Assembly (NCBI RefSeq): GCF_050725615.1
Contig: NZ_JBOHHU010000004.1
Span: 17,096 to 81,095, forward strand
Source: Sphingopyxis sp.
Lineage (GTDB): Bacteria; Pseudomonadota; Alphaproteobacteria; Sphingomonadales; Sphingomonadaceae
Direction: 5' to 3'
Length of the DNA stretch: 64,000 nt
This document shows positions 1-8,350 of this stretch, piece after piece. Numbering within the stretch: the first letter of the stretch is position 1; every line of letters begins with the position of its first letter. The notes below the pieces were generated by a model, which saw nothing but the letters and a program-made list of their open reading frames with translations, was not told where the DNA came from and made no database searches. A program made the position numbers and the translations under genes.

Positions 1-725
1 GCCCAGACCGCAATGACGACCGACCCGACGATGCCGATCACCGGGTCGAGCCACACCCAGCCGAGATAGCGCCCGCCGAGCAAGGCCGCGATCGCCATCA
101 CCGACGTCAAGGCGTCGGCGAGGACATGGACATAGGCCGAGCGCATATTGTTATCGCTGTGGCGCGCGGGCCTCGCGTGGTCATGGTGGTGATCGTCGTG
201 ATCGTGATCGTGATCGTGGTCGTGCGCGTGGTGGTGGCCGTGGCTATGGCCCGGGCCATGGCTGTGCCCGCCGCCGAGCAGCACGGCGCAGACGATGTTC
301 ACGACCAGGCCGACCGCGGCCACGACCGTGGCGTCCATGAAATCGACCGGGCGCGGATCGATCAGCCGCTGCGCCGATTCAAACGCGATGCCGAGCGCGA
401 CGACGCCGAGGATCAACGCCGAGGCGAAGCCCGCGAGATCGCCGACCTTGCCGGTGCCGAAGCTGTAGCGCGGGTTGCGGGCGTGCTTGCGCGCATAGGC
501 ATAGGCGATGGCGGCGATGCCGAGCGCGCCCGCGTGGGTGGCCATATGGAAACCGTCGGCGAGCAGCGCCATCGAGTTGAAGGCGAATCCCGCGACGATC
601 TCCGCCACCATCATCACCGCCGTGATCGCGACGACCCACAGGGTGCGGCGGCCATTTTCGTCATGGCCCGCGCCGAGGAAGACATGATCGTGGGTCAGGT
701 CGTTGATCTGACTATCGAAAGACAT
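1..725 (-). CDS. dmeF: CDF family Co/Ni(II) efflux transporter, DmeF type (3' end runs off the window)
   Basis: Not in the ORF track; translated by hand from ATG at 725: MSFDSQINDLTHDHVFLGAGHDENGRRTLWVVAIT..SMALLADGFHMATH..SFGTGKVGDLAGFAS..His-rich loop..DNNMRSAYVHVLADALTS..WLDP. AAGGA RBS upstream. Confidence 0.9.
   Translation of the reverse strand, partial: MSFDSQINDLTHDHVFLGAGHDENGRRTLWVVAITAVMMVAEIVAGFAFNSMALLADGFHMATHAGALGIAAIAYAYARKHARNPRYSFGTGKVGDLAGFASALILGVVALGIAFESAQRLIDPRPVDFMDATVVAAVGLVVNIVCAVLLGGGHSHGPGHSHGHHHAHDHDHDHDHDDHHHDHARPARHSDNNMRSAYVHVLADALTSVMAIAALLGGRYLGWVWLDPVIGIVGSVVIAVW
189..221. repeat. Imperfect 6-bp tandem repeat (GTGATC)n encoding the HDHDHDHD part of the DmeF His-rich loop
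   Basis: gtgatc gtc gtgatc gtgatc gtgatc gtggtc read directly. Confidence 0.85.
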
Positions 726-756
726 AAGCCGCGATCCTTCTTGTCCGCCCGCCATC

Positions 757-1326
757 CTATAGCCAGCCTGCGGTCTGCGCCAAGACCCAGATGCCGATGA
801 CGAGGAACAGGCCCGCAGCGACCCGTCGCACCGTATCGAGATTGACGCGCTTGAGCAGGGCGTGGCCGAGGAAGATAGCGGGAACATTGGCGATCATCAT
901 GCCGATGGTGGTGCCCGTCGTGACGAGCAGGACGCTGTGATATTGGGCACCGAGCGCGATCGTCGCGACCTGGGTCTTGTCGCCCATCTCGACGAGGAAG
1001 AAGGCGATCAGCGTGGTCAGGAAAGCGCCGAAGCGCGGCTTGGGGGCTTCGTCGTCGTCGAACTTGTCGGGGACGAGGGTCCAGGCGGCCATGGCAATGA
1101 AGCTCGCGCCGATCGCATAGCGGAAGACCGGGCTGTCGAGGAACGAAGCTGCGGACGCGCCGAGCAGCGCGGCGAGCGCATGGTTGGCAAGGGTGGCGAA
1201 GAGGATGCCGAGGATGATCGGCACCGGCTTGTTGAAGCGCGTCGCGAGCAGGATTGCGAGCAATTGCGTCTTGTCGCCGATCTCGGCGAGCGCGACGACG
1301 GCGGTCGAGGTGAAGAGAGCTTCCAT
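757..1326 (-). CDS. TMEM165/GDT1 (UPF0016) family Mn2+/Ca2+ exporter
   Basis: Two E-x-G-D-K-T-Q motifs (AEIGDKTQ, VEMGDKTQ). Real start MEALFTS at 1326 with GGAG RBS; the ORF-track extension to 1476 runs through the riboswitch. Confidence 0.93.
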   Translation of the reverse strand: MEALFTSTAVVALAEIGDKTQLLAILLATRFNKPVPIILGILFATLANHALAALLGASAASFLDSPVFRYAIGASFIAMAAWTLVPDKFDDDEAPKPRFGAFLTTLIAFFLVEMGDKTQVATIALGAQYHSVLLVTTGTTIGMMIANVPAIFLGHALLKRVNLDTVRRVAAGLFLVIGIWVLAQTAGWL

Positions 1327-1334
1327 AAAAGGAC

Positions 1335-1393
1335 TCCGGGGCCGGGCGGCGTTGCGATTCCAACGGACATCGAAACCCGCCGCCCGGCCCGGA
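1335..1393 (-). promoter_or_regulatory. Riboswitch expression-platform hairpin (16-bp stem, one bulge) covering part of the SD of the TMEM165 gene
   Basis: mRNA UCCGGGCCGGGCGGCG...CGCCGCCCGGCCCCGGA-GUCCUUUU-AUG; the GGA of the GGAG SD is in the 3' arm. Confidence 0.65.
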
Positions 1394-1405
1394 CGTGGGG
1401 TCGAT

Positions 1406-1520
1406 GCCATTGGTCTCGCCCAAGCGGTATTCCCGCTTCCACCGCACCACGGCCTCTCGACCGAGTATGTTGACACGATGGCCCGTCCCGAACGGACGGC
1501 TGGCTACTCCCCAGATGACT
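1406..1520 (-). ncRNA. yybP-ykoY manganese riboswitch aptamer
   Basis: Minus strand has the family hallmarks GGGGAGUAGC, UGUCAACAUACU and GGCGAGACC. P1 GUCAUCUGG/CCAAUGGC can pair. Directly upstream of a TMEM165/GDT1 gene, a known context for this riboswitch. Confidence 0.9.
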
Positions 1521-1734
1521 TGGGCGCGGTAGCGGGCGGAGCGCCGGGAGGCAAGGCCTTTGGCGTCCCCTCCCCCGCCTCGCGTGCGGCCTTGTCGGCG
1601 GCGGCGATGTCGGCGTCCATCGCCTTGGCGCGCGCCCCGATTTCCTTTTCCGCCTTGTCGAAGCGATCCTCGAACTTCGGCTCTTCCTTGCAAGCGGCGA
1701 GGAGCAAGGGCAGGAGGATGAGCGCGGCGCGCAT
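1504..1734 (-). CDS. Small lipoprotein of unknown function
   Basis: Lipobox LLAAC after a hydrophobic stretch; ATG overlaps the tamB stop (TGATG). Confidence 0.75.
   Translation of the reverse strand: MRAALILLPLLLAACKEEPKFEDRFDKAEKEIGARAKAMDADIAAADKAAREAGEGTPKALPPGAPPATAPKSSGE
1526..1554 (-). promoter_or_regulatory. Putative sigma70 promoter for the riboswitch leader, inside the lipoprotein CDS
   Basis: TTG(1554-1552)-N18-GCTACCGC(1533-1526) fits the Caulobacter-type TTG-N18-GCTA consensus; predicted TSS about 1520, the aptamer 5' end. Confidence 0.6.
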
Positions 1735-4700
1735 CAATAATCCTTGCGGTAACGGATGCTGAAATTGGTCTGGCCCGACCCGCCCGCCTGGCTGAGGATC
1801 GAGAGCGCCGGGGTCAGGCTGATCTCGAGCTGGGTCGCGGTATAGCCGCGGCCGTCGGTGATGACCTCGAGATAGATGTCGTTGGTGATATGCTGGCCGG
1901 CGGCGAGCGCGGTGCCCCGTCCTTGCGTGTCGTCGGGGCCGAGGACGCGCAGCCGGTCGATACCCGTCGCCGACTGCAGCGCGCCGAGCGGGCTCAGGCC
2001 GCCGCTGCCGCGCAGGCTGTTGAGCGAGGCGGCGAGTTGCACCGCCTGCAGCGGTGACAGCGCGGTGATCGAATCGCCGAACAGGATGCGCGACACGATC
2101 TCGTCCTGCGGCAGGCCGGGGACGCTGGAGAAGGCGATTTGCGGATTCTGTGCGCGGCCCGAGACATTGACGGTGACCGTCACATTCTCGATCGTGTCGC
2201 TCGCGATCAGGCGGATCGACGGATCATAGGCGTCGCCGGTCGGGAAGGTCACCCGCCCTTCCTGCAATTCGAACGACCGGCCCGCGAAGCCCAGGGTGCC
2301 GCGCACGAGCTCGATCTCGCCAGTGACGCGCGGCGCCTGCGTCGTGCCTTTCAGCGTCACATCGGCCATCCATTCGGATTCGAGCCCCATGCCGTTGACA
2401 TAGATCTCGTCGCCCGCCCGCAGGTGGATATCGAGACGGATGAGGTCGAACAGGCTGGTTCCGACGGCGGCGAGGCCGTCGCCGCTGATCCGCGCGCGGC
2501 CCGCCGGCGGCTTGCGGCGGATGCCGGTGAGCACGGGGACGCTGGCAGCGCCCTGGCGGACGATCTTGTAGCGCGTTTCGGGGAGCCGCAGATCGCCCGA
2601 GAGCAGCGCGGTCTGCCCCGCGACCTTTTCGAGCGTCAGATTGCCGGTAGCGCGGGCCGAGAGGTCGTCGCTGCGCGCGAGGCGGGCATTGTCGAGCACC
2701 GCATCGATCTTCATCGGATAGCCGCTCGCGGCGGCGAGGCTGACATAGCCCGACGCCTTGACCGTGCCGTCGCCGGCGGTCGCGGTGAGCTGTTCGATCT
2801 CGATCCGGTCGCCCGAGAAGCGGCCGTTCACCACCATGTTGGTCAGGCGCGTGCCATAGGTGATATTCTCATAGGACAGCGCATTGCCGCGAATGACGCC
2901 GTCGAGGCAGGGCGCCGACAGGCGGCAGCTGAAATCGGCGGCGACGGCGATCGGCCCAGCCAGCCGCTGGTCGCCCGAACCGACGAAGGAGAAGAGCGTG
3001 TCGGCGGGGCCGTTGTAACGGATGCCGCCCGACAGCGGCGCGGCCTGCAGGCGGGTCGTCCAGTCGCCGCTGCCCGGTGGCAGCGGGCGGAGCGAGGCCT
3101 GGAGGCGCCCGATGACGCTGCCGCGCTTGCGCATCACCGCGCTCGCCGCGCCGCCGTCGGCGAGCAATTTGCCGGCGAAATTGACGTCGACCGGCTGGCT
3201 GACCGTCGCGGCGGTGGTGCGCGTGAAGCCGGTGATCGTGAGGCGGGCATCGGCGCGCGGGAAACTGGTGCTGCTCGCCTGTTCGAAATCGACGCTGCCG
3301 GTCGCGCGGCCGCCAAGGCCCATGTCGGGATAGACGGCATTGAGCAGCGACAGGTTGACGCGGTCGAGGCGGCTCTGGAGCATGATGCCTTCGCCAAAGC
3401 GCCCGGCGAGCCGCGCGCTGCTGCCGCGTCCGAAATCGACATTGGTCGGGAGCAGTTCGTAATCATCCTTGCCGGGAATGATGCGCGCCGGACTGGTGGT
3501 CCGGAAATTGATCCCCGTCGCGCGGCCCTGCACCGATGCGTGCCAGAGGTTCGGCGCGAGATCGGCGTTGGCGGCGACGCGGAAGGGCACGCCGCTTGTG
3601 CCCTCGACCAGCGCCTGCGCCTTGCCCGCGCCATTCTGATAATCGATCTTCACCCGGCCGACCGCGACATCGACGTTGCGGATGCGTGTCTGCGCGATCT
3701 GAATGTCGGCGATGACGCGCGGACGATCGTAGAGGACGACGTCGGCATCGACGATCGCCGAGCCGATCGCCAATTGGGCGGGACCGGGCAGCACGACATT
3801 GTTGGCGCGCACGTTGATCGCCGCGGCCTGATATTTGCCGGCGGCGCTCAGCCGGACGAGGCCGCCAAGCCCCTGCCCCGAGGCGTCGAGCTGGCCGACG
3901 AAAGGCCCGGCGGCGCTCTGGACGAGGCGGCCCTTGAAACCGATGCCCGACAGGTCGCCGCGCTCGACGTCGATGGTCAGCGGCCCCTTGGCGGTGAGCA
4001 ATACGACATCGGCGGCGAGCGGACCATAATCGGTGTCGCCGGTCGCCGCGAGGCGGTAGCCGCCGGTCGCGCCGGTGATCCGCGCGACGAGATTCTGGAG
4101 GCCGATGCCGAGCCCCGGGCGGTCGGCGGTGAGCGTCGCGCGCGGATCGGTGATCGTGCCCGCGAGTTGCAGCCCGAGCGGGCCGTACTCGGTCGAGGAG
4201 GCGCGCGCGGTCAGCTGGATCTGGCCATTGGGGTTATAAGTCCCCTGCCCGCTGGTAACGCGCATGAGCGGCGCGTTGAGACGGAGATTGGCGAAGCGGA
4301 TGATGCCGTCGGTGCCATATCGTACGTCGCCCGACGCCACGGCATTGCCGCCGAGCACATTGCGCACGCCGGAATTGAATAATTGGGTCGAGCGCGCGCG
4401 GACGCGGCCGACGATTTCGAACCCGCCATTGGGCGCGGTCTTCAAATCGGCGTCGGTGTCGATGTCGAAGATGCCGACGCTTTCGATGCGATAATCGTCG
4501 ATCCGCCCGTCGATCGCGCCGGTGTAGAAGCCGCGATTGAGGTCGGCGATCAGGATCGCCTTGGCGTCGATGCGGCTCGATTTCAGGCGCATATTGTCGC
4601 TGAGCAGGCGGCCGTCCTTGTACGCGAGGTCGCCGTCGAGGCGGACGTTCACCAGCGTGCCGCCGGCGACGACATCGAGCCCGCGAATGCGCGTCGCGCG

Positions 4701-5963
4701 GCCCGCGACGGGGATGAATATCTGGTCGGGATCGACGCGGGCCTTCCCTGACAGGGTCAGCGCCTCGATCACGATATCGTTGACCGCAAGGCTGATGGCG
4801 TTCGCCTGATAGTCGACCGTGGGCAGGGCAAAGGCGCCGTCGAGCCGGGCCTGCGCGCGCAGCCCGCTGCCGCGCACATAAGGTGCGATGGCGCCGGGCT
4901 TGAGCAGGACGAAAGCGACCTGCAGCCCGTCATAGCGGCTGGCGCCGAGGTCGATGCCGCCGCTCAGCCCGACGCGTGCGGCGTCGGACGACAGGCGGCC
5001 ATCGAGGTCGACCTTGCGTTCGTTCAGCCGTGCGGTGAGGTCGATCGCGGTTTCGGTGCCGAGCATATCGGCAACGGGGCCGGCGGCGAGCAGGCGCGAC
5101 GGCTGCGCGGTGCCCTTGACCGCGAAAATGCCGTCGCGCGCGGCGAGGCCGAGGCGCGCGAGCGGCTGGGCGCCGAGATTGCCGGTGAGCGTACCGGTCC
5201 AGGCTTTCCAGTCGCCCTTGCCCGACAGCTTGGCTGTCAGCGGTTCCTTGAAGCCGCCCATCGCGGCGAGGACGCCGCCCCGCGGGGCGTTGATATCCAT
5301 GTCGATCGCGAGGCGGTTGGATTCGGGCACCGCGTCGAGGATGAGCGCGAGCTTGTCGCCCTTGGCATCGCTACCGATGGTCTCGGCATTGGCGGAGATC
5401 TGTGCACGGCGGTCGGCGATCGCGACCTTGCCCGTCAGGTGCGCTTCCTGTCGCTGGCCGGCAACGGGGGCCTCGAAGACGAAGCGGTCGACCTGCAATC
5501 TGGCGACGTCGATATCGATGTCGGGCAGCAGCGGCTCGCCGGTGTCCGGAACGGGTTTGAACCCCGGAATCCGCCCCATCGTGACCGTCTGTGCCGTCGC
5601 CGACCGGATATCGATATGGTTCGAAAAATAGGCGAAGGGCCGCCAGTCGACCTTGACCTCGGGCGAGCGCAGGAACACCCCCTTGGTATCCGACAGCGTC
5701 AGGTCGCGGATCGACATCGCGCCGAACAGCGACCCGTCGAGGCGGCCGATGCCGATCTTCATCCCGTTTTCGAATTCATATTTTTCGATCTGGGTGACGA
5801 CGAACCGGCGACCCGCATCGCTGTTGAGCCCGATGAGAAAGAGCCCGATCAGCGCGATCAGGCCGCCGATCGTGATGCCGACGCCGCGGGCGATGCGGCG
5901 CAGCCAGGGCGCTTTGGCCTTTGGCGGTGGCGGACTATCGTCGAAGGCGGCGTCGTCCGCCAT
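1734..5963 (-). CDS. tamB: Translocation/assembly module TamB
   Basis: 1409 aa, N-terminal TM anchor, beta-taco repeats, DUF490-like C-terminus ending RYRKDY; adjacent to tamA. Confidence 0.9.
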   Translation of the reverse strand: MADDAAFDDSPPPPKAKAPWLRRIARGVGITIGGLIALIGLFLIGLNSDAGRRFVVTQIEKYEFENGMKIGIGRLDGSLFGAMSIRDLTLSDTKGVFLRSPEVKVDWRPFAYFSNHIDIRSATAQTVTMGRIPGFKPVPDTGEPLLPDIDIDVARLQVDRFVFEAPVAGQRQEAHLTGKVAIADRRAQISANAETIGSDAKGDKLALILDAVPESNRLAIDMDINAPRGGVLAAMGGFKEPLTAKLSGKGDWKAWTGTLTGNLGAQPLARLGLAARDGIFAVKGTAQPSRLLAAGPVADMLGTETAIDLTARLNERKVDLDGRLSSDAARVGLSGGIDLGASRYDGLQVAFVLLKPGAIAPYVRGSGLRAQARLDGAFALPTVDYQANAISLAVNDIVIEALTLSGKARVDPDQIFIPVAGRATRIRGLDVVAGGTLVNVRLDGDLAYKDGRLLSDNMRLKSSRIDAKAILIADLNRGFYTGAIDGRIDDYRIESVGIFDIDTDADLKTAPNGGFEIVGRVRARSTQLFNSGVRNVLGGNAVASGDVRYGTDGIIRFANLRLNAPLMRVTSGQGTYNPNGQIQLTARASSTEYGPLGLQLAGTITDPRATLTADRPGLGIGLQNLVARITGATGGYRLAATGDTDYGPLAADVVLLTAKGPLTIDVERGDLSGIGFKGRLVQSAAGPFVGQLDASGQGLGGLVRLSAAGKYQAAAINVRANNVVLPGPAQLAIGSAIVDADVVLYDRPRVIADIQIAQTRIRNVDVAVGRVKIDYQNGAGKAQALVEGTSGVPFRVAANADLAPNLWHASVQGRATGINFRTTSPARIIPGKDDYELLPTNVDFGRGSSARLAGRFGEGIMLQSRLDRVNLSLLNAVYPDMGLGGRATGSVDFEQASSTSFPRADARLTITGFTRTTAATVSQPVDVNFAGKLLADGGAASAVMRKRGSVIGRLQASLRPLPPGSGDWTTRLQAAPLSGGIRYNGPADTLFSFVGSGDQRLAGPIAVAADFSCRLSAPCLDGVIRGNALSYENITYGTRLTNMVVNGRFSGDRIEIEQLTATAGDGTVKASGYVSLAAASGYPMKIDAVLDNARLARSDDLSARATGNLTLEKVAGQTALLSGDLRLPETRYKIVRQGAASVPVLTGIRRKPPAGRARISGDGLAAVGTSLFDLIRLDIHLRAGDEIYVNGMGLESEWMADVTLKGTTQAPRVTGEIELVRGTLGFAGRSFELQEGRVTFPTGDAYDPSIRLIASDTIENVTVTVNVSGRAQNPQIAFSSVPGLPQDEIVSRILFGDSITALSPLQAVQLAASLNSLRGSGGLSPLGALQSATGIDRLRVLGPDDTQGRGTALAAGQHITNDIYLEVITDGRGYTATQLEISLTPALSILSQAGGSGQTNFSIRYRKDY

Positions 5964-8350
5964 CAGAAAGCCTGTCCGATCGAGACATAGACGCTGACCC
6001 GCGCTTCACCCGGCTGGCGGTTGATCGGGGTCGCGACGTCAAGGCGCATCGGGCCGAAATTGGTGTAGAAACGCCCGCCGATGCCCGCGCCATAGCGCAG
6101 GTTCGAAAAGTCCGGCGTCGATCCCCGATAGACCTGCCCCGCATCGACGAAGCCGACGATGCCATAGTGGCCGAAGCGATAGCGCGCCTCGACCGCCGCC
6201 TCGTTGACACTGCGGCCGCCGATCGGGTCGTTATTGGGGTCCATGGGGCCGAGCTGCTGGTAACCGAAGCCGCGCACCGACCCGCCGCCACCGGCATAGA
6301 AGCGCCGCGACGGCGCCAGATTGTCGCGCGAAGCTCCGAGGATCGAACCGACGCGAACGCGCCCGGCGAGCACGATGCTGTCGGTCACCGGATAATAGCC
6401 GCTGACGTCGACGCGCGCGCGTGCATAGGGTGAAAAATGGCCGCTCAGCGAGCCCTCGGGCTGGAGCAGGCCGGTGATGCGGAAGCCCTTGGTCGGGTTG
6501 AGCAGGCTGTCGCTGCGGTCGATGCCGAGCTGGCCGGTCAGACCCGCGATATAATAGACGCTGCGGGTGCGGGTGGCGAGGAGGAAGCTGTAGTCATCCT
6601 CGCTCGTGGCGATCAGGTCGAGGCCATAGGAATAGGTGATCTTCTTTTGCCAGATCGGGGTGGATTCGCGGCTGACGCGAAAGCCGACGCGGCCGGTGAT
6701 CGCCTCGAAGGCGTCGTAATTGCTGTGCGACGCTTCGGCGGCTAGCTCGAAGGTGCGGTCGCGGCGCCCGGCGTTCGAGCGGCGGAAGGTGACGCCCAGC
6801 GCCTGTTCCTGCGTGCCCGCGAGACCACGGACGATCAGCGCGCCTTCGGGTGGGAAGAGGTTGCGGTGGGTCCAGCTGCCTTCGACGCGGATGCCCTGGC
6901 CGGTGCCATAGCCCGCGCTGGCCGCCAGGGTGCGCGGCGGGCCGGCTTCCTGCGTCACCAGCATCGTCACATATTCGGTGTCGTCGCCTGCGCTCTCGCC
7001 GGTCTTTTGCGGTTCGACCGAGACGGTCGCGAACAGGCCGGTGGCGACGAGCGCCTGGCGCAGGTCGTCGGCCCTGCGGCTGTCGTAGAGATCGCCGCGC
7101 TTGAAGCGGGCGAGCAGTTCCACATGCTCGACGTCGAAGGCGAGTTTGCCGCCGGTCTCGAACCCGCCGAAACGGGCGCGGGGACCGATGTCGACCGGCA
7201 GGGTGTAGACCCCGTCGCCGGTCGCGCCGTCGAGCAAGATGTCGCGCTGGCCGACGGTGGCGAAGGGATAGCCCTCCTCGGGCAGCTTCAATGCAATGGC
7301 CGCTTCGGCGCCCTGGACGCGCTGCGCGACGATGGGTTCGCCGATAAGGAGCGGGAAATTATCCTTGATGAGCGTCGGCGGCACCGTGGGGGCGGCGTTG
7401 ATGACGATGTCCGACAGGGTGTAGCGCTGGCCGGGCACGACATCGATGATCGCGATCAGCGGGCGGCGCTGGCGCGGCGTTTCGGGCGGGGCTTCGCCGC
7501 CGGCCGTTGCGGGCGTCGCTGCGCCCTGGCCACGGCCGCCGCCCTGCCCGCCACCCTGACCGTCGCCGCCGCGGTCGAGGCGGGTATCGACCTGCGCATC
7601 ATAATAGCCCTCGGAGGCGAGGATGCGGCGCATCAGGTCGGCATCGGCGGTCAGCCGCGCGCGGACCATCGCGGCGTTGGCGGCCTCGCCGTCGCCATCG
7701 TAGAGCGCCGACAGGTCGCCGAACAGGTCGGCGAGATCGGCGTCGGTGCCGTCGTCGGCGGGTGCGAGCCCGTTGACCTGGACGGTGTAGGCGATCTTGA
7801 CATTGTCGTCGGCGGATTCGGGTTCGGCGAATTCGACCGGTTCGACGTTGAACCGGTCGAGCGGCGGCAAGGGCGCGGCGAGTTCGGCGTCGGTGATCGG
7901 CGCGTCGCCGATCGCCTCGACCGCGTCGGCGTCGGCGAGCGCGGGGGTCGGCGCCGGTTCGGAACCCGGCACGACCTGCCCTTCCGATGCGGCCTTGGCC
8001 GCCTGGCGGCGTTCAAATTCGGCAATGGATTCGAGCGGGACGTCGAGTTCGGGGTCGTCCTCCGCAGAAATCTTCGGGATCGCGCGGTCGAATTCGTCAT
8101 CCTCGATGATCGGTTCGACCTTGGGAAATTGCGCGTCGGGCGGTGGCGGGGTGGGTTTCGCCATCCCGGTATCGGGCGCGGTTTCAGGGTTCGCCGTTTC
8201 GGTCACCGGCGGTGGTTGTACAGCGTCCTGCGCGTGTGCGGTCGCCGCAGCGAGGCAGAGCAACGAGGCCGACAGCGCGAACGCGGGGCGCAGCGGGGCG
8301 ACCGCCGCGGGCCAGCGGATCGATTCACGAAGGTTTTCAGAATCTTGCAT
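5963..8350 (-). CDS. tamA: Autotransporter assembly Omp85 protein TamA
   Basis: Signal peptide, POTRA-like region, barrel with RFYAGGGGSVRGFGYQ motif and C-terminal IGQAF. Confidence 0.9.
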   Translation of the reverse strand: MQDSENLRESIRWPAAVAPLRPAFALSASLLCLAAATAHAQDAVQPPPVTETANPETAPDTGMAKPTPPPPDAQFPKVEPIIEDDEFDRAIPKISAEDDPELDVPLESIAEFERRQAAKAASEGQVVPGSEPAPTPALADADAVEAIGDAPITDAELAAPLPPLDRFNVEPVEFAEPESADDNVKIAYTVQVNGLAPADDGTDADLADLFGDLSALYDGDGEAANAAMVRARLTADADLMRRILASEGYYDAQVDTRLDRGGDGQGGGQGGGRGQGAATPATAGGEAPPETPRQRRPLIAIIDVVPGQRYTLSDIVINAAPTVPPTLIKDNFPLLIGEPIVAQRVQGAEAAIALKLPEEGYPFATVGQRDILLDGATGDGVYTLPVDIGPRARFGGFETGGKLAFDVEHVELLARFKRGDLYDSRRADDLRQALVATGLFATVSVEPQKTGESAGDDTEYVTMLVTQEAGPPRTLAASAGYGTGQGIRVEGSWTHRNLFPPEGALIVRGLAGTQEQALGVTFRRSNAGRRDRTFELAAEASHSNYDAFEAITGRVGFRVSRESTPIWQKKITYSYGLDLIATSEDDYSFLLATRTRSVYYIAGLTGQLGIDRSDSLLNPTKGFRITGLLQPEGSLSGHFSPYARARVDVSGYYPVTDSIVLAGRVRVGSILGASRDNLAPSRRFYAGGGGSVRGFGYQQLGPMDPNNDPIGGRSVNEAAVEARYRFGHYGIVGFVDAGQVYRGSTPDFSNLRYGAGIGGRFYTNFGPMRLDVATPINRQPGEARVSVYVSIGQAF

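What the first reader, a model, noticed from the sequence alone, without database searches (positions are those of the whole stretch)
1335..1560. Riboswitch promoter and P1 strand overprinted on a lipoprotein's C-terminal codons
Seen: the lipoprotein ends AAG TCA TCT GGG GAG TAG (KSSGE*), so its stop codon is the UAG of the riboswitch's conserved GGGGAGUAG. The preceding codons (KALPPGAPPAT) contain a TTG-N18-GCTACCGC promoter match. About 17 codons are therefore triple-use: protein, promoter and aptamer. Inference: on read-through transcripts from tamAB, ribosomes terminating inside P1 would unfold the aptamer, so Mn sensing might work only on transcripts from the internal promoter. Alternatively the tail is an accidental extension after loss of an earlier stop.
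Basis: partly seen in the sequence, partly recalled or inferred. Interest (0 to 1): 0.55.

Follow-up and report, generated by a model that had tools for sequence, protein, structure and literature searches.

The report
Lipoprotein gene ending inside manganese riboswitch
In Sphingopyxis, a small lipoprotein gene reads across the promoter and first helix of an ordinary manganese-sensing RNA switch and stops at the switch's own invariant UAG; the layout is real and conserved across the genus, but looks like tolerated gene crowding, not a designed triple code.

Summary
Everything lies on the minus strand, in the order tamA, tamB, a 76-codon lipoprotein gene, a manganese (yybP-ykoY) riboswitch, a GDT1/MneA-type exporter and a DmeF-type CDF.

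The lipoprotein ends ...KSSGE* and its TAG (1506-1504) is the UAG of GGGGAGUAG.

The same stop occurs in 27 of 30 loci of the genus and in 65 of 80 named, mostly Sphingopyxis, loci. On a TamB tree it looks ancestral in the genus and was lost at least twice.

A sigma-70-type promoter is well supported by comparison:
- It reads CTTGCC-N17-CTA, with a predicted start near 1519, the first base of helix P1.1.
- It keeps fixed spacing in all 30 Sphingopyxis loci.
- It also precedes the riboswitch in 28 of 29 loci of other genera, where no lipoprotein gene lies upstream.

The last 17 codons show no codon periodicity, so DNA and RNA constraints dictate them.

"Triple use" is overstated. Twelve codons overlap the promoter and five plus the stop overlap the RNA, but none does both.

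Ribosome interference on operon read-through transcripts is plausible but untested, and lineages that stop 55-89 nt earlier show the overlap is dispensable.

The ON/OFF logic of the expression platform remains unresolved.

The parts
5963..8350 (-). tamA (Omp85/POTRA), first gene of the upstream operon
   Evidence: Pfam PF01103 at 1.6e-41 and POTRA. Its end meets the tamB start at 5963.
1734..5963 (-). tamB, 1409 codons
   Evidence: Pfam PF04357 at 4e-60. Its TGA overlaps the lipoprotein ATG as TGATG.
1504..1734 (-). Small lipoprotein ORF of 76 codons: signal peptide with lipobox LLAAC, a conserved helical core and a variable low-complexity tail. The stop TAG is at 1506-1504.
   Evidence: The TGATG or TAATG junction with tamB is present in 30 of 31 loci. 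The core shows codon periodicity, with H1/H2/H3 of 0.30/0.23/0.98. Homologues follow tamB in 25 of 112 genera of the family. There is no Pfam or NCBIfam family.
1550..1555 (-). -35 box CTTGCC, read as the third base of an Ala codon, then Leu, then the first two bases of a Pro codon
   Evidence: CTTG is invariant at this position in 30 of 30 loci of the genus. The base before TTG is an invariant third codon position while the first two positions vary. The same box sits about 43 nt upstream of the riboswitch GGGAG in other genera.
1527..1532 (-). -10 box CTACCG, 17 nt after the -35 box
   Evidence: CTA is invariant in 30 of 30 loci. The consensus in other genera is gCTA at the same spacing. It matches the first half of the S. 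meliloti sigma-70 consensus CTTGAC-N17-CTATAT (PMC2873474).
1519..1519 (-). Predicted transcription start (G), the first base of the P1.1 5' strand
   Evidence: Inferred from the position 7-8 nt after the -10 box. Not mapped.
1406..1519 (-). Manganese riboswitch aptamer: P1.1 5' strand GUCAUCUGG (1519-1511), L1 GGGGAGUAG (1512-1504), L3 UCAACAUAC, P1.1 3' strand CCAAUGGC (1413-1406)
   Evidence: cmscan. Covariation over six helices. This is the only RF00080 match in the genome.
1360..1413 (-). Hairpin H: the P1.1 3' strand plus linker pairs with a downstream copy-like strand (UCGAUGUCCGUUGG), so it competes with P1.1
   Evidence: 19 pairs, 8 with compensatory changes, 89% paired. This is the analogue of the alternative pairing of the P1.1 3' segment in L. 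lactis and in E. coli mntP (PMC11087558; PMC12153347).
1335..1393 (-). Second helix, exclusive with H: GGGCCGGGCGGCG pairs with CGCCGCCCGGCCC, extended by UCC with GGA of the Shine-Dalgarno GGAG (1337-1334)
   Evidence: 16 pairs, 8 with compensatory changes, 88% paired. In constrained folds it forms in 34 of 37 sequences when P1.1 is enforced and in 0 of 37 when H is enforced.
757..1326 (-). GDT1/UPF0016 (MneA-like) manganese exporter gene, the regulated gene
   Evidence: Pfam PF01169 at 5e-42, two repeats. Both E-x-G-D-K-T motifs are visible in the translation. 328 of 333 bacterial UPF0016 genes are reported to lie behind this riboswitch (PMC7380456).
3..725 (-). CDF transporter (DmeF type), 31 nt downstream of the exporter gene; it runs off the window
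   Evidence: Pfam PF01545. NCBIfam NF033827 at 4.2e-108.

Best explanation
This is a standard Mn2+ (yybP-ykoY) riboswitch with its own sigma-70-type promoter, controlling a GDT1/MneA-type manganese exporter. In the ancestor of Sphingopyxis this cassette came to lie directly behind the translationally coupled tamA-tamB-lipoprotein operon.

The lipoprotein has a variable, low-complexity C-terminal tail. With no stop in front of the cassette, its frame runs on across the promoter (-35 to +1, 12 codons) and across the first 15 nt of the riboswitch RNA (the P1.1 5' strand and L1). It ends at the first in-frame stop, the invariant UAG of GGGGAGUAG.

The last 17 codons therefore evolve under promoter and RNA constraint, and the protein simply carries whatever they encode (..L-P/Q/S..S-N..SSGE).

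The Mn-sensing mRNA is inferred to start at about 1519 from the internal promoter. It would not contain the lipoprotein start, so it would fold and sense Mn like any other member of the class.

On operon read-through transcripts, a ribosome terminating at the UAG would cover P1.1 and L1 and leave the P1.1 3' strand to the competing hairpin H. This is inferred and is probably a minor, tolerated side effect.

Shown here: the overlap, its conservation, the nucleotide-level constraint, the aptamer fold and the two competing platform helices. Inferred: the transcription start, the ribosome effect, and which platform state permits translation.
For: - Sequence and cmscan.
- The stop coincides with the UAG in 27 of 30 and 65 of 80 loci.
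- On the TamB tree the overlap is present in the two deepest branches of the genus and the non-overlap states are nested.
- Outside the genus the lipoprotein still follows tamB but has no riboswitch behind it. There the riboswitch, with a GDT1 gene behind it in most loci, lies elsewhere behind the same CTTGCc-N17-CTA motif.
- The codon-position entropy of the tail is flat (0.60/0.53/0.49) against 0.30/0.23/0.98 in the core. Third positions are invariant where they belong to CTTG, CTA or GUCAUCUGGGGAGUAG.
- A PAP2 gene in another genus also ends at the riboswitch UAG, an independent second case.
- Lineages with earlier stops exist.
Against: - No transcription start site data were found, and an E. 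coli-type promoter scan is negative.
- The distance from the lipoprotein core to the UAG takes 18 different in-frame values in 72 loci and is out of frame in only 4. The tail is therefore translated and its frame is under selection, so the run-on is not entirely neutral.
- No in-frame stop has arisen in the free spacer codons of the promoter in any overlapping locus.
- Seven genomes of the genus had no or only a weak lipoprotein match (five none, two weak; six of the seven are 1.5-3.0 Mb) and were not examined. The ancestral-state inference covers only the sampled clade.
Confidence: 0.7

Rival explanations
1. The overlap is functional. Ribosomes terminating at the UAG inside L1 hold the P1.1 5' strand on tamAB-lipoprotein read-through transcripts. 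The P1.1 3' strand then falls into hairpin H, and those transcripts are insulated from, or uncoupled from, Mn-dependent expression of the exporter. Selection keeps the stop inside the aptamer.
For: - The stop lies 7 nt into L1, and a terminating ribosome would cover P1.1, L1 and part of P2 (established ribosome footprint sizes).
- H competes for the P1.1 3' strand, with covariation support.
- Riboswitching in the E. coli relatives is co-transcriptional and depends on P1.1 (PMC12153347).
- The layout is retained in about 85-90% of Sphingopyxis loci, and the frame is preserved through at least 17 length changes.
Against: - Five or so lineages end the gene 55-89 nt upstream, out of ribosome reach, and keep the same promoter and riboswitch.
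- Other genera run the same riboswitch with no gene overlapping it.
- Frame conservation has a simpler explanation. One alternative frame stays open for 332 codons through the riboswitch and the exporter gene, which would be harmful.
- There are no expression data.
Confidence: 0.15
2. There is no internal promoter. The conserved CTTG and CTA blocks are a regulator binding site or part of the RNA, and the riboswitch is transcribed only as the 3' part of the tamAB-lipoprotein mRNA.
For: - The -10 box is weak (CTACCG), and the generic scan finds no promoter.
- No terminator separates the lipoprotein gene from the riboswitch.
Against: - The same two blocks at the same 17-nt spacing precede the riboswitch in 28 of 29 loci of other genera, where no tamB or lipoprotein gene lies upstream.
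- They match CTTGAC-N17-CTA of the alphaproteobacterial sigma-70 consensus.
- They place +1 on the first base of P1.1.
Confidence: 0.1
3. The small lipoprotein ORF is not a real gene, so nothing is overprinted.
For: There is no Pfam or NCBIfam family. The Atlas model has low confidence.
Against: - The core shows strong third-position variation with a conserved protein sequence.
- The Cys and lipobox are invariant.
- The start is coupled to the tamB stop in 30 of 31 loci.
- Homologues follow tamB in at least 25 genera.
Confidence: 0.03

Closest known systems
yybP-ykoY Mn2+ riboswitches of L. lactis yoaB and E. coli mntP
   Same: - The L1 (GGGGAGUAG) and L3 (UCAACAUAC) motifs match.
- The aptamer is a four-way junction.
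- P1.1 acts as the switch helix, and its 3' strand has an alternative downstream partner.
- The switch controls a manganese exporter.
   Different: - The 5' strand of P1.1 and L1 lie inside the coding sequence of the upstream gene, and its promoter lies inside that gene too.
- The platform has two covarying, mutually exclusive helices and no clear U-tract.
- It is probably translational, like mntP, but is much shorter.
Vibrio cholerae mneA (UPF0016/GDT1) behind a Mn riboswitch
   Same: The same gene family sits behind the same riboswitch class. This pairing is reported for 328 of 333 bacterial UPF0016 genes (PMC7380456).
   Different: No overlap with an upstream ORF is described there. Here a DmeF-type CDF follows the exporter.
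Promoters embedded in the 3' end of an upstream gene, and promoter-specific mRNA isoforms with different translation (B. subtilis sigma-B regulon, PMC8208050, abstract only)
   Same: Two transcript isoforms, operon read-through and an internal start, would differ in what lies 5' of the regulatory structure.
   Different: Here the long isoform would differ by carrying translating ribosomes onto the sensor helix, not by forming an extra RNA structure. Nothing has been measured.
Listeria lmo2684 preQ1-like leader with a uORF ending at a UAG (PMC12519234)
   Same: A stop codon of a translated frame lies within or next to a ligand-binding RNA element.
   Different: That frame is a short leader ORF inside the 5' UTR, with ligand-dependent read-through. 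Here it is the end of a separate, conserved upstream gene, and no read-through is indicated.

Membership tests
yybP-ykoY manganese riboswitch (Rfam RF00080) | Covariance-model score at or above Rfam's gathering score (45 bits) | tested here: inconclusive
   The window scores 40.4 bits at E 1.6e-8. The studied E. coli mntP riboswitch scores 41.6 bits with the same model. Homologous loci in the family reach 45-67 bits. The cut-off is operational and is not a defining property.
yybP-ykoY manganese riboswitch (Rfam RF00080) | Conserved L1 (GGGGAGUAG) and L3 (CAACAUAC) metal-site motifs | tested here: met
   Both are present in the window. Both are invariant or nearly so across 37 aligned sequences.
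yybP-ykoY manganese riboswitch (Rfam RF00080) | Four-way-junction helices supported by covariation | tested here: met
   Six helices with 39 pairs, 95.8% paired, 21 pairs with compensatory changes. Slid controls give 29-47% paired.
yybP-ykoY manganese riboswitch (Rfam RF00080) | The P1.1 3' strand has a competing downstream partner (switch helix) | tested here: met
   Hairpin H has 19 pairs, 8 of them compensatory.
yybP-ykoY manganese riboswitch (Rfam RF00080) | Mn2+ binding and Mn-dependent induction of the downstream gene | not testable with these tools
   This needs in-line or SHAPE probing and reporter assays. Equilibrium folding does not reveal the ON state. The same is reported for E. 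coli alx and mntP.
GDT1/UPF0016 (MneA-like) cation exporter | Two PF01169 repeats, each with E-x-G-D-(K/R)-(T/S) | tested here: met
   PF01169 at 5e-42 with two stretches. EIGDKT and EMGDKT are visible in the translation.
Bacterial lipoprotein (Lgt/Lsp substrate) | Signal peptide ending in a lipobox with an invariant Cys | tested here: met
   The N-terminus reads MRAALILLPLLLAAC, and the Cys is invariant in 26 of 26 aligned orthologues. Lipidation itself is not testable here.
Alphaproteobacterial sigma-70 promoter (CTTGAC-N17-CTATAT) | -35 and -10 boxes at 17-nt spacing, upstream of a mapped start | tested here: inconclusive
   The sequence is CTTGCC-N17-CTACCG. The -35 box matches 5 of 6 and the -10 box 3 of 6. 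The blocks are conserved in 30 of 30 congeners and in 28 of 29 loci of other genera. No start site has been mapped.

The most novel reading that the evidence does not exclude
The stop codon inside L1 is kept by selection. On tamAB-lipoprotein read-through transcripts the terminating ribosome occupies the P1.1 5' strand during the co-transcriptional decision window and forces the P1.1 3' strand into hairpin H. Only transcripts from the internal promoter can then sense Mn, which would be a ribosome-enforced insulator between an outer-membrane biogenesis operon and a metal exporter.

A second, separate possibility also remains open. Read at equilibrium, the platform pairs the Shine-Dalgarno sequence when P1.1 is formed. 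That could mean kinetic control, as in E. coli. Much less likely, it could mean an inverted (Mn-OFF) switch.
Probability: 0.15. Interest if true: 0.6.

Novelty: new variant of a known kind. Interest (0 to 1): 0.4.

Why it matters
All the parts are known kinds: the riboswitch class, the exporter family and a sigma-70-type promoter.

What is unusual is the embedding. A protein's last 17 residues are written by a promoter and by the sensor helix of a riboswitch, and this has been stable across a genus.

It is a clean natural example of regulatory DNA and RNA dictating protein sequence, the reverse of the usual worry.

It also comes with natural controls. Sphingopyxis lineages that stop 55-89 nt earlier allow a test of whether translation into a riboswitch's switch helix matters.

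For annotation, both this riboswitch and E. coli mntP fall below Rfam's gathering score. Gene callers will report the lipoprotein and the riboswitch as overlapping features.

Tried and rejected
- **Generic promoter and terminator scan of 1200-2000.** It found nothing. The alphaproteobacterial -10 box lacks the E. coli hallmarks, so the scan is uninformative here.
- **Shine-Dalgarno accessibility from partition functions, with and without an enforced P1.1.** There was no consistent difference.
- **The idea that the freed P1.1 5' strand acts as the anti-Shine-Dalgarno sequence.** The duplex has a median of -13.3 kcal/mol against -10.2 for shuffles, z about -1.2, so it is no better than composition predicts. 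I left it as a possibility only.
- **Hairpin H as an intrinsic terminator.** From my own reading of the alignment, several other genera have U-rich tails after H, but the window has AAUCGCAAC. This is not supported for Sphingopyxis.
- **UAG read-through fusing the lipoprotein to the exporter.** The two frames coincide in the window, with 59 open codons between them. The spacing varies out of frame in relatives, so this is a coincidence.
- **Search for Sphingopyxis transcription start site data.** None was found.
- **Naming the lipoprotein.** Pfam, NCBIfam and the ESM Atlas gave no family.
- **Dambach et al. 2015.** The paper could not be fetched.

Full report
**What is there**

All features lie on the minus strand. 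In order they are:
- tamA, 8350..5963 (Omp85/POTRA).
- tamB, 5963..1734 (PF04357).
- A 76-codon ORF, 1734..1504.
- An RF00080 match, 1525..1348.
- A GDT1/UPF0016 gene, 1326..757 (PF01169 at 5e-42).
- A DmeF-type CDF gene from 725 to the window edge.

The small ORF starts at an ATG that overlaps the tamB TGA as TGATG. It encodes a signal peptide with lipobox LLAAC. It ends AAG TCA TCT GGG GAG TAG.

**Is it a manganese riboswitch?**

The window scores 40.4 bits (E 1.6e-8), below Rfam's 45-bit gathering score. The studied E. coli mntP riboswitch scores 41.6 bits with the same model, and related sphingomonad loci reach up to 67 bits.

On an alignment of 37 related leaders, the canonical helices are 95.8% paired. 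21 of 39 pairs show compensatory changes, against 29-47% paired when the partners are slid. L1 and L3 are invariant.

The downstream gene carries both E-x-G-D-K-T motifs of the MneA/GDT1 family. That family is reported behind this riboswitch in 328 of 333 bacteria (PMC7380456). This is the only RF00080 match in the genome. Membership is secure apart from the untestable Mn response.

**Is the lipoprotein gene real?**

Orthologues were found in 31 of 36 other genomes of the genus. With a profile, homologues were found in 25 of 112 genera of the family, always directly after tamB.

The Cys and five residues of the ARAKAMD motif (A-R-A-x-A-M-D) are invariant. The start is coupled to the tamB stop in 30 of 31 loci.

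Across 28 distinct orthologues, the 29-codon core has codon-position entropies of 0.30/0.23/0.98. That is the signature of purifying selection on a protein.

No Pfam or NCBIfam family covers it, and the ESM Atlas names its clusters only 'putative lipoprotein' or 'hypothetical'.

**How widespread is the overlap?**

The genus is Sphingopyxis, by the record titles.

- In 27 of 30 loci of the genus the lipoprotein stop is the riboswitch UAG and the protein ends xSSGE.
- In 80 named loci, 65 overlap. Seven have the riboswitch 55-324 nt beyond an earlier stop. Eight have no riboswitch within the flank, and five of those are Novosphingobium.
- On a TamB tree rooted by other genera, the two deepest branches of the genus carry the overlap and the non-overlapping forms are nested. 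This means one gain and at least two losses, though support at the second node is modest at 88/40.
- Outside the genus the lipoprotein still follows tamB, with a tail of similar composition but no riboswitch behind it.
- There the riboswitch sits elsewhere, with a GDT1 gene behind it in 25 of the 29 loci.

The layout therefore arose when the cassette came to lie behind the lipoprotein gene.

**The promoter**

An ungapped alignment anchored on the riboswitch shows no indel in the 48 nt before it. It also shows invariant CTTG and CTA blocks in all 30 loci, including the three where these bases are non-coding.

In 28 of 29 loci from other genera a TTG(C/A)(C/A)N box lies 40-52 nt upstream of GGGAG, with a mode of 43 nt. 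It is followed by gCTA, giving CTTGCc-N17-CTA.

This matches the -35 box and the first half of the -10 box of the S. meliloti sigma-70 consensus CTTGAC-N17-CTATAT (PMC2873474).

In the window the -35 box is 1555-1550 and the -10 box is 1532-1527. The expected start is G1519, the first base of P1.1. This is comparative inference; I found no start-site data.

**What constrains the tail?**

In the last 17 codons the entropies are 0.60/0.53/0.49, so there is no coding periodicity.
- The third base of the codon before TTG is an invariant C, while its first two bases encode D, G, A, P or N.
- The third base of the codon before TCA is an invariant G, while the residue is P, A, T or K.
- TCA TCT GGG GAG TAG is invariant at all positions.

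These codons are dictated by the promoter and the RNA. Twelve codons overlap the promoter and five plus the stop overlap the transcribed aptamer. No base has all three roles, so 'triple use' is overstated.

The tail is nevertheless translated and frame-constrained. The distance from the core to the UAG takes 18 different in-frame values in 72 distinct loci, and is out of frame in only four, all of which have early stops (not corrected for phylogeny).

There is a simple reason. One alternative frame stays open for 332 codons through the riboswitch and the exporter gene.

A second, independent case exists. In another genus a PAP2 phosphatase gene also runs through the promoter and ends at the riboswitch UAG. 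In a high-GC genome the invariant UAG is simply the first stop available in one frame out of three.

**Expression platform**

Two mutually exclusive helices both carry covariation.
- Hairpin H pairs the P1.1 3' strand plus linker with a downstream strand that mimics the P1.1 5' strand. It has 19 pairs, 8 compensatory.
- The second helix pairs GGGCCGGGCGGCG with CGCCGCCCGGCCC and extends to UCC with the GGA of the Shine-Dalgarno sequence. It has 16 pairs, 8 compensatory.

In constrained folds the second helix forms in 34 of 37 sequences when P1.1 is enforced, and never when H is enforced.

H corresponds to the alternative pairing of the P1.1 3' segment described for L. lactis and E. coli mntP.

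Read at equilibrium, the Mn-bound state would bury the Shine-Dalgarno sequence. That contradicts the known ON behaviour of this class. For E. coli alx, equilibrium-refolded RNA is reported inactive with or without Mn. For both alx and mntP, the Mn response requires co-transcriptional folding. I therefore leave the ON/OFF assignment open.

A ribosome with the UAG in its A site would cover P1.1, L1 and part of P2, and the P1.1 3' strand would then go to H. Read-through transcripts could therefore be held in the apo-like fold while they are being translated.

This is plausible but unmeasured. It is dispensable, because several lineages stop 55-89 nt upstream and keep the same promoter and riboswitch. 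Other genera have no overlapping gene at all.

**Verdict**

The element is an ordinary manganese riboswitch in an unusual, genus-wide embedding. It is best read as a tolerated by-product of gene crowding (0.7), with a functional ribosome-gating reading not excluded (0.15).

Noticed in passing
window 1335-1413 (minus strand): The expression platform has two covarying, mutually exclusive helices. At equilibrium the P1.1-formed (Mn-bound) state goes with the helix that pairs the Shine-Dalgarno sequence. That is the opposite of the expected ON logic. It points either to kinetic control as in E. coli alx and mntP, or to something unusual.
   Followed up: partly
L032:1598-2377 (minus strand of the locus): In another genus of the family, a PAP2-family phosphatase gene also reads through the riboswitch promoter and ends at the riboswitch's UAG. 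This is an independent second case of stop-codon capture.
   Followed up: partly
L172:5462-5558 (E. coli K-12 mntP leader): The experimentally studied mntP riboswitch scores 41.6 bits with the Rfam 15 RF00080 model, below the 45-bit gathering score. Default Rfam annotation would therefore miss it, and would miss the riboswitch in this window too.
   Followed up: yes
window 1324-1506 (minus strand): In this genome the lipoprotein frame and the exporter frame are the same, separated by the single UAG and 59 open codons. The spacing is not a multiple of three in most relatives, so this looks coincidental.
   Followed up: yes
window 3-757 (minus strand): A DmeF-type Co/Ni CDF exporter with a His-rich loop follows the manganese exporter after 31 nt, with its own Shine-Dalgarno-like AAGAAGGA. 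It may be co-transcribed and so come under the manganese riboswitch.
   Followed up: no
window 1600-1734 (minus strand); loci L065-L091: A small, uncharacterised lipoprotein with a conserved C-x(2)-EP-x-F-x(2)-RY helix is translationally coupled to tamB across many Sphingomonadaceae genera. It could be an unrecognised partner of the TAM machinery.
   Followed up: partly
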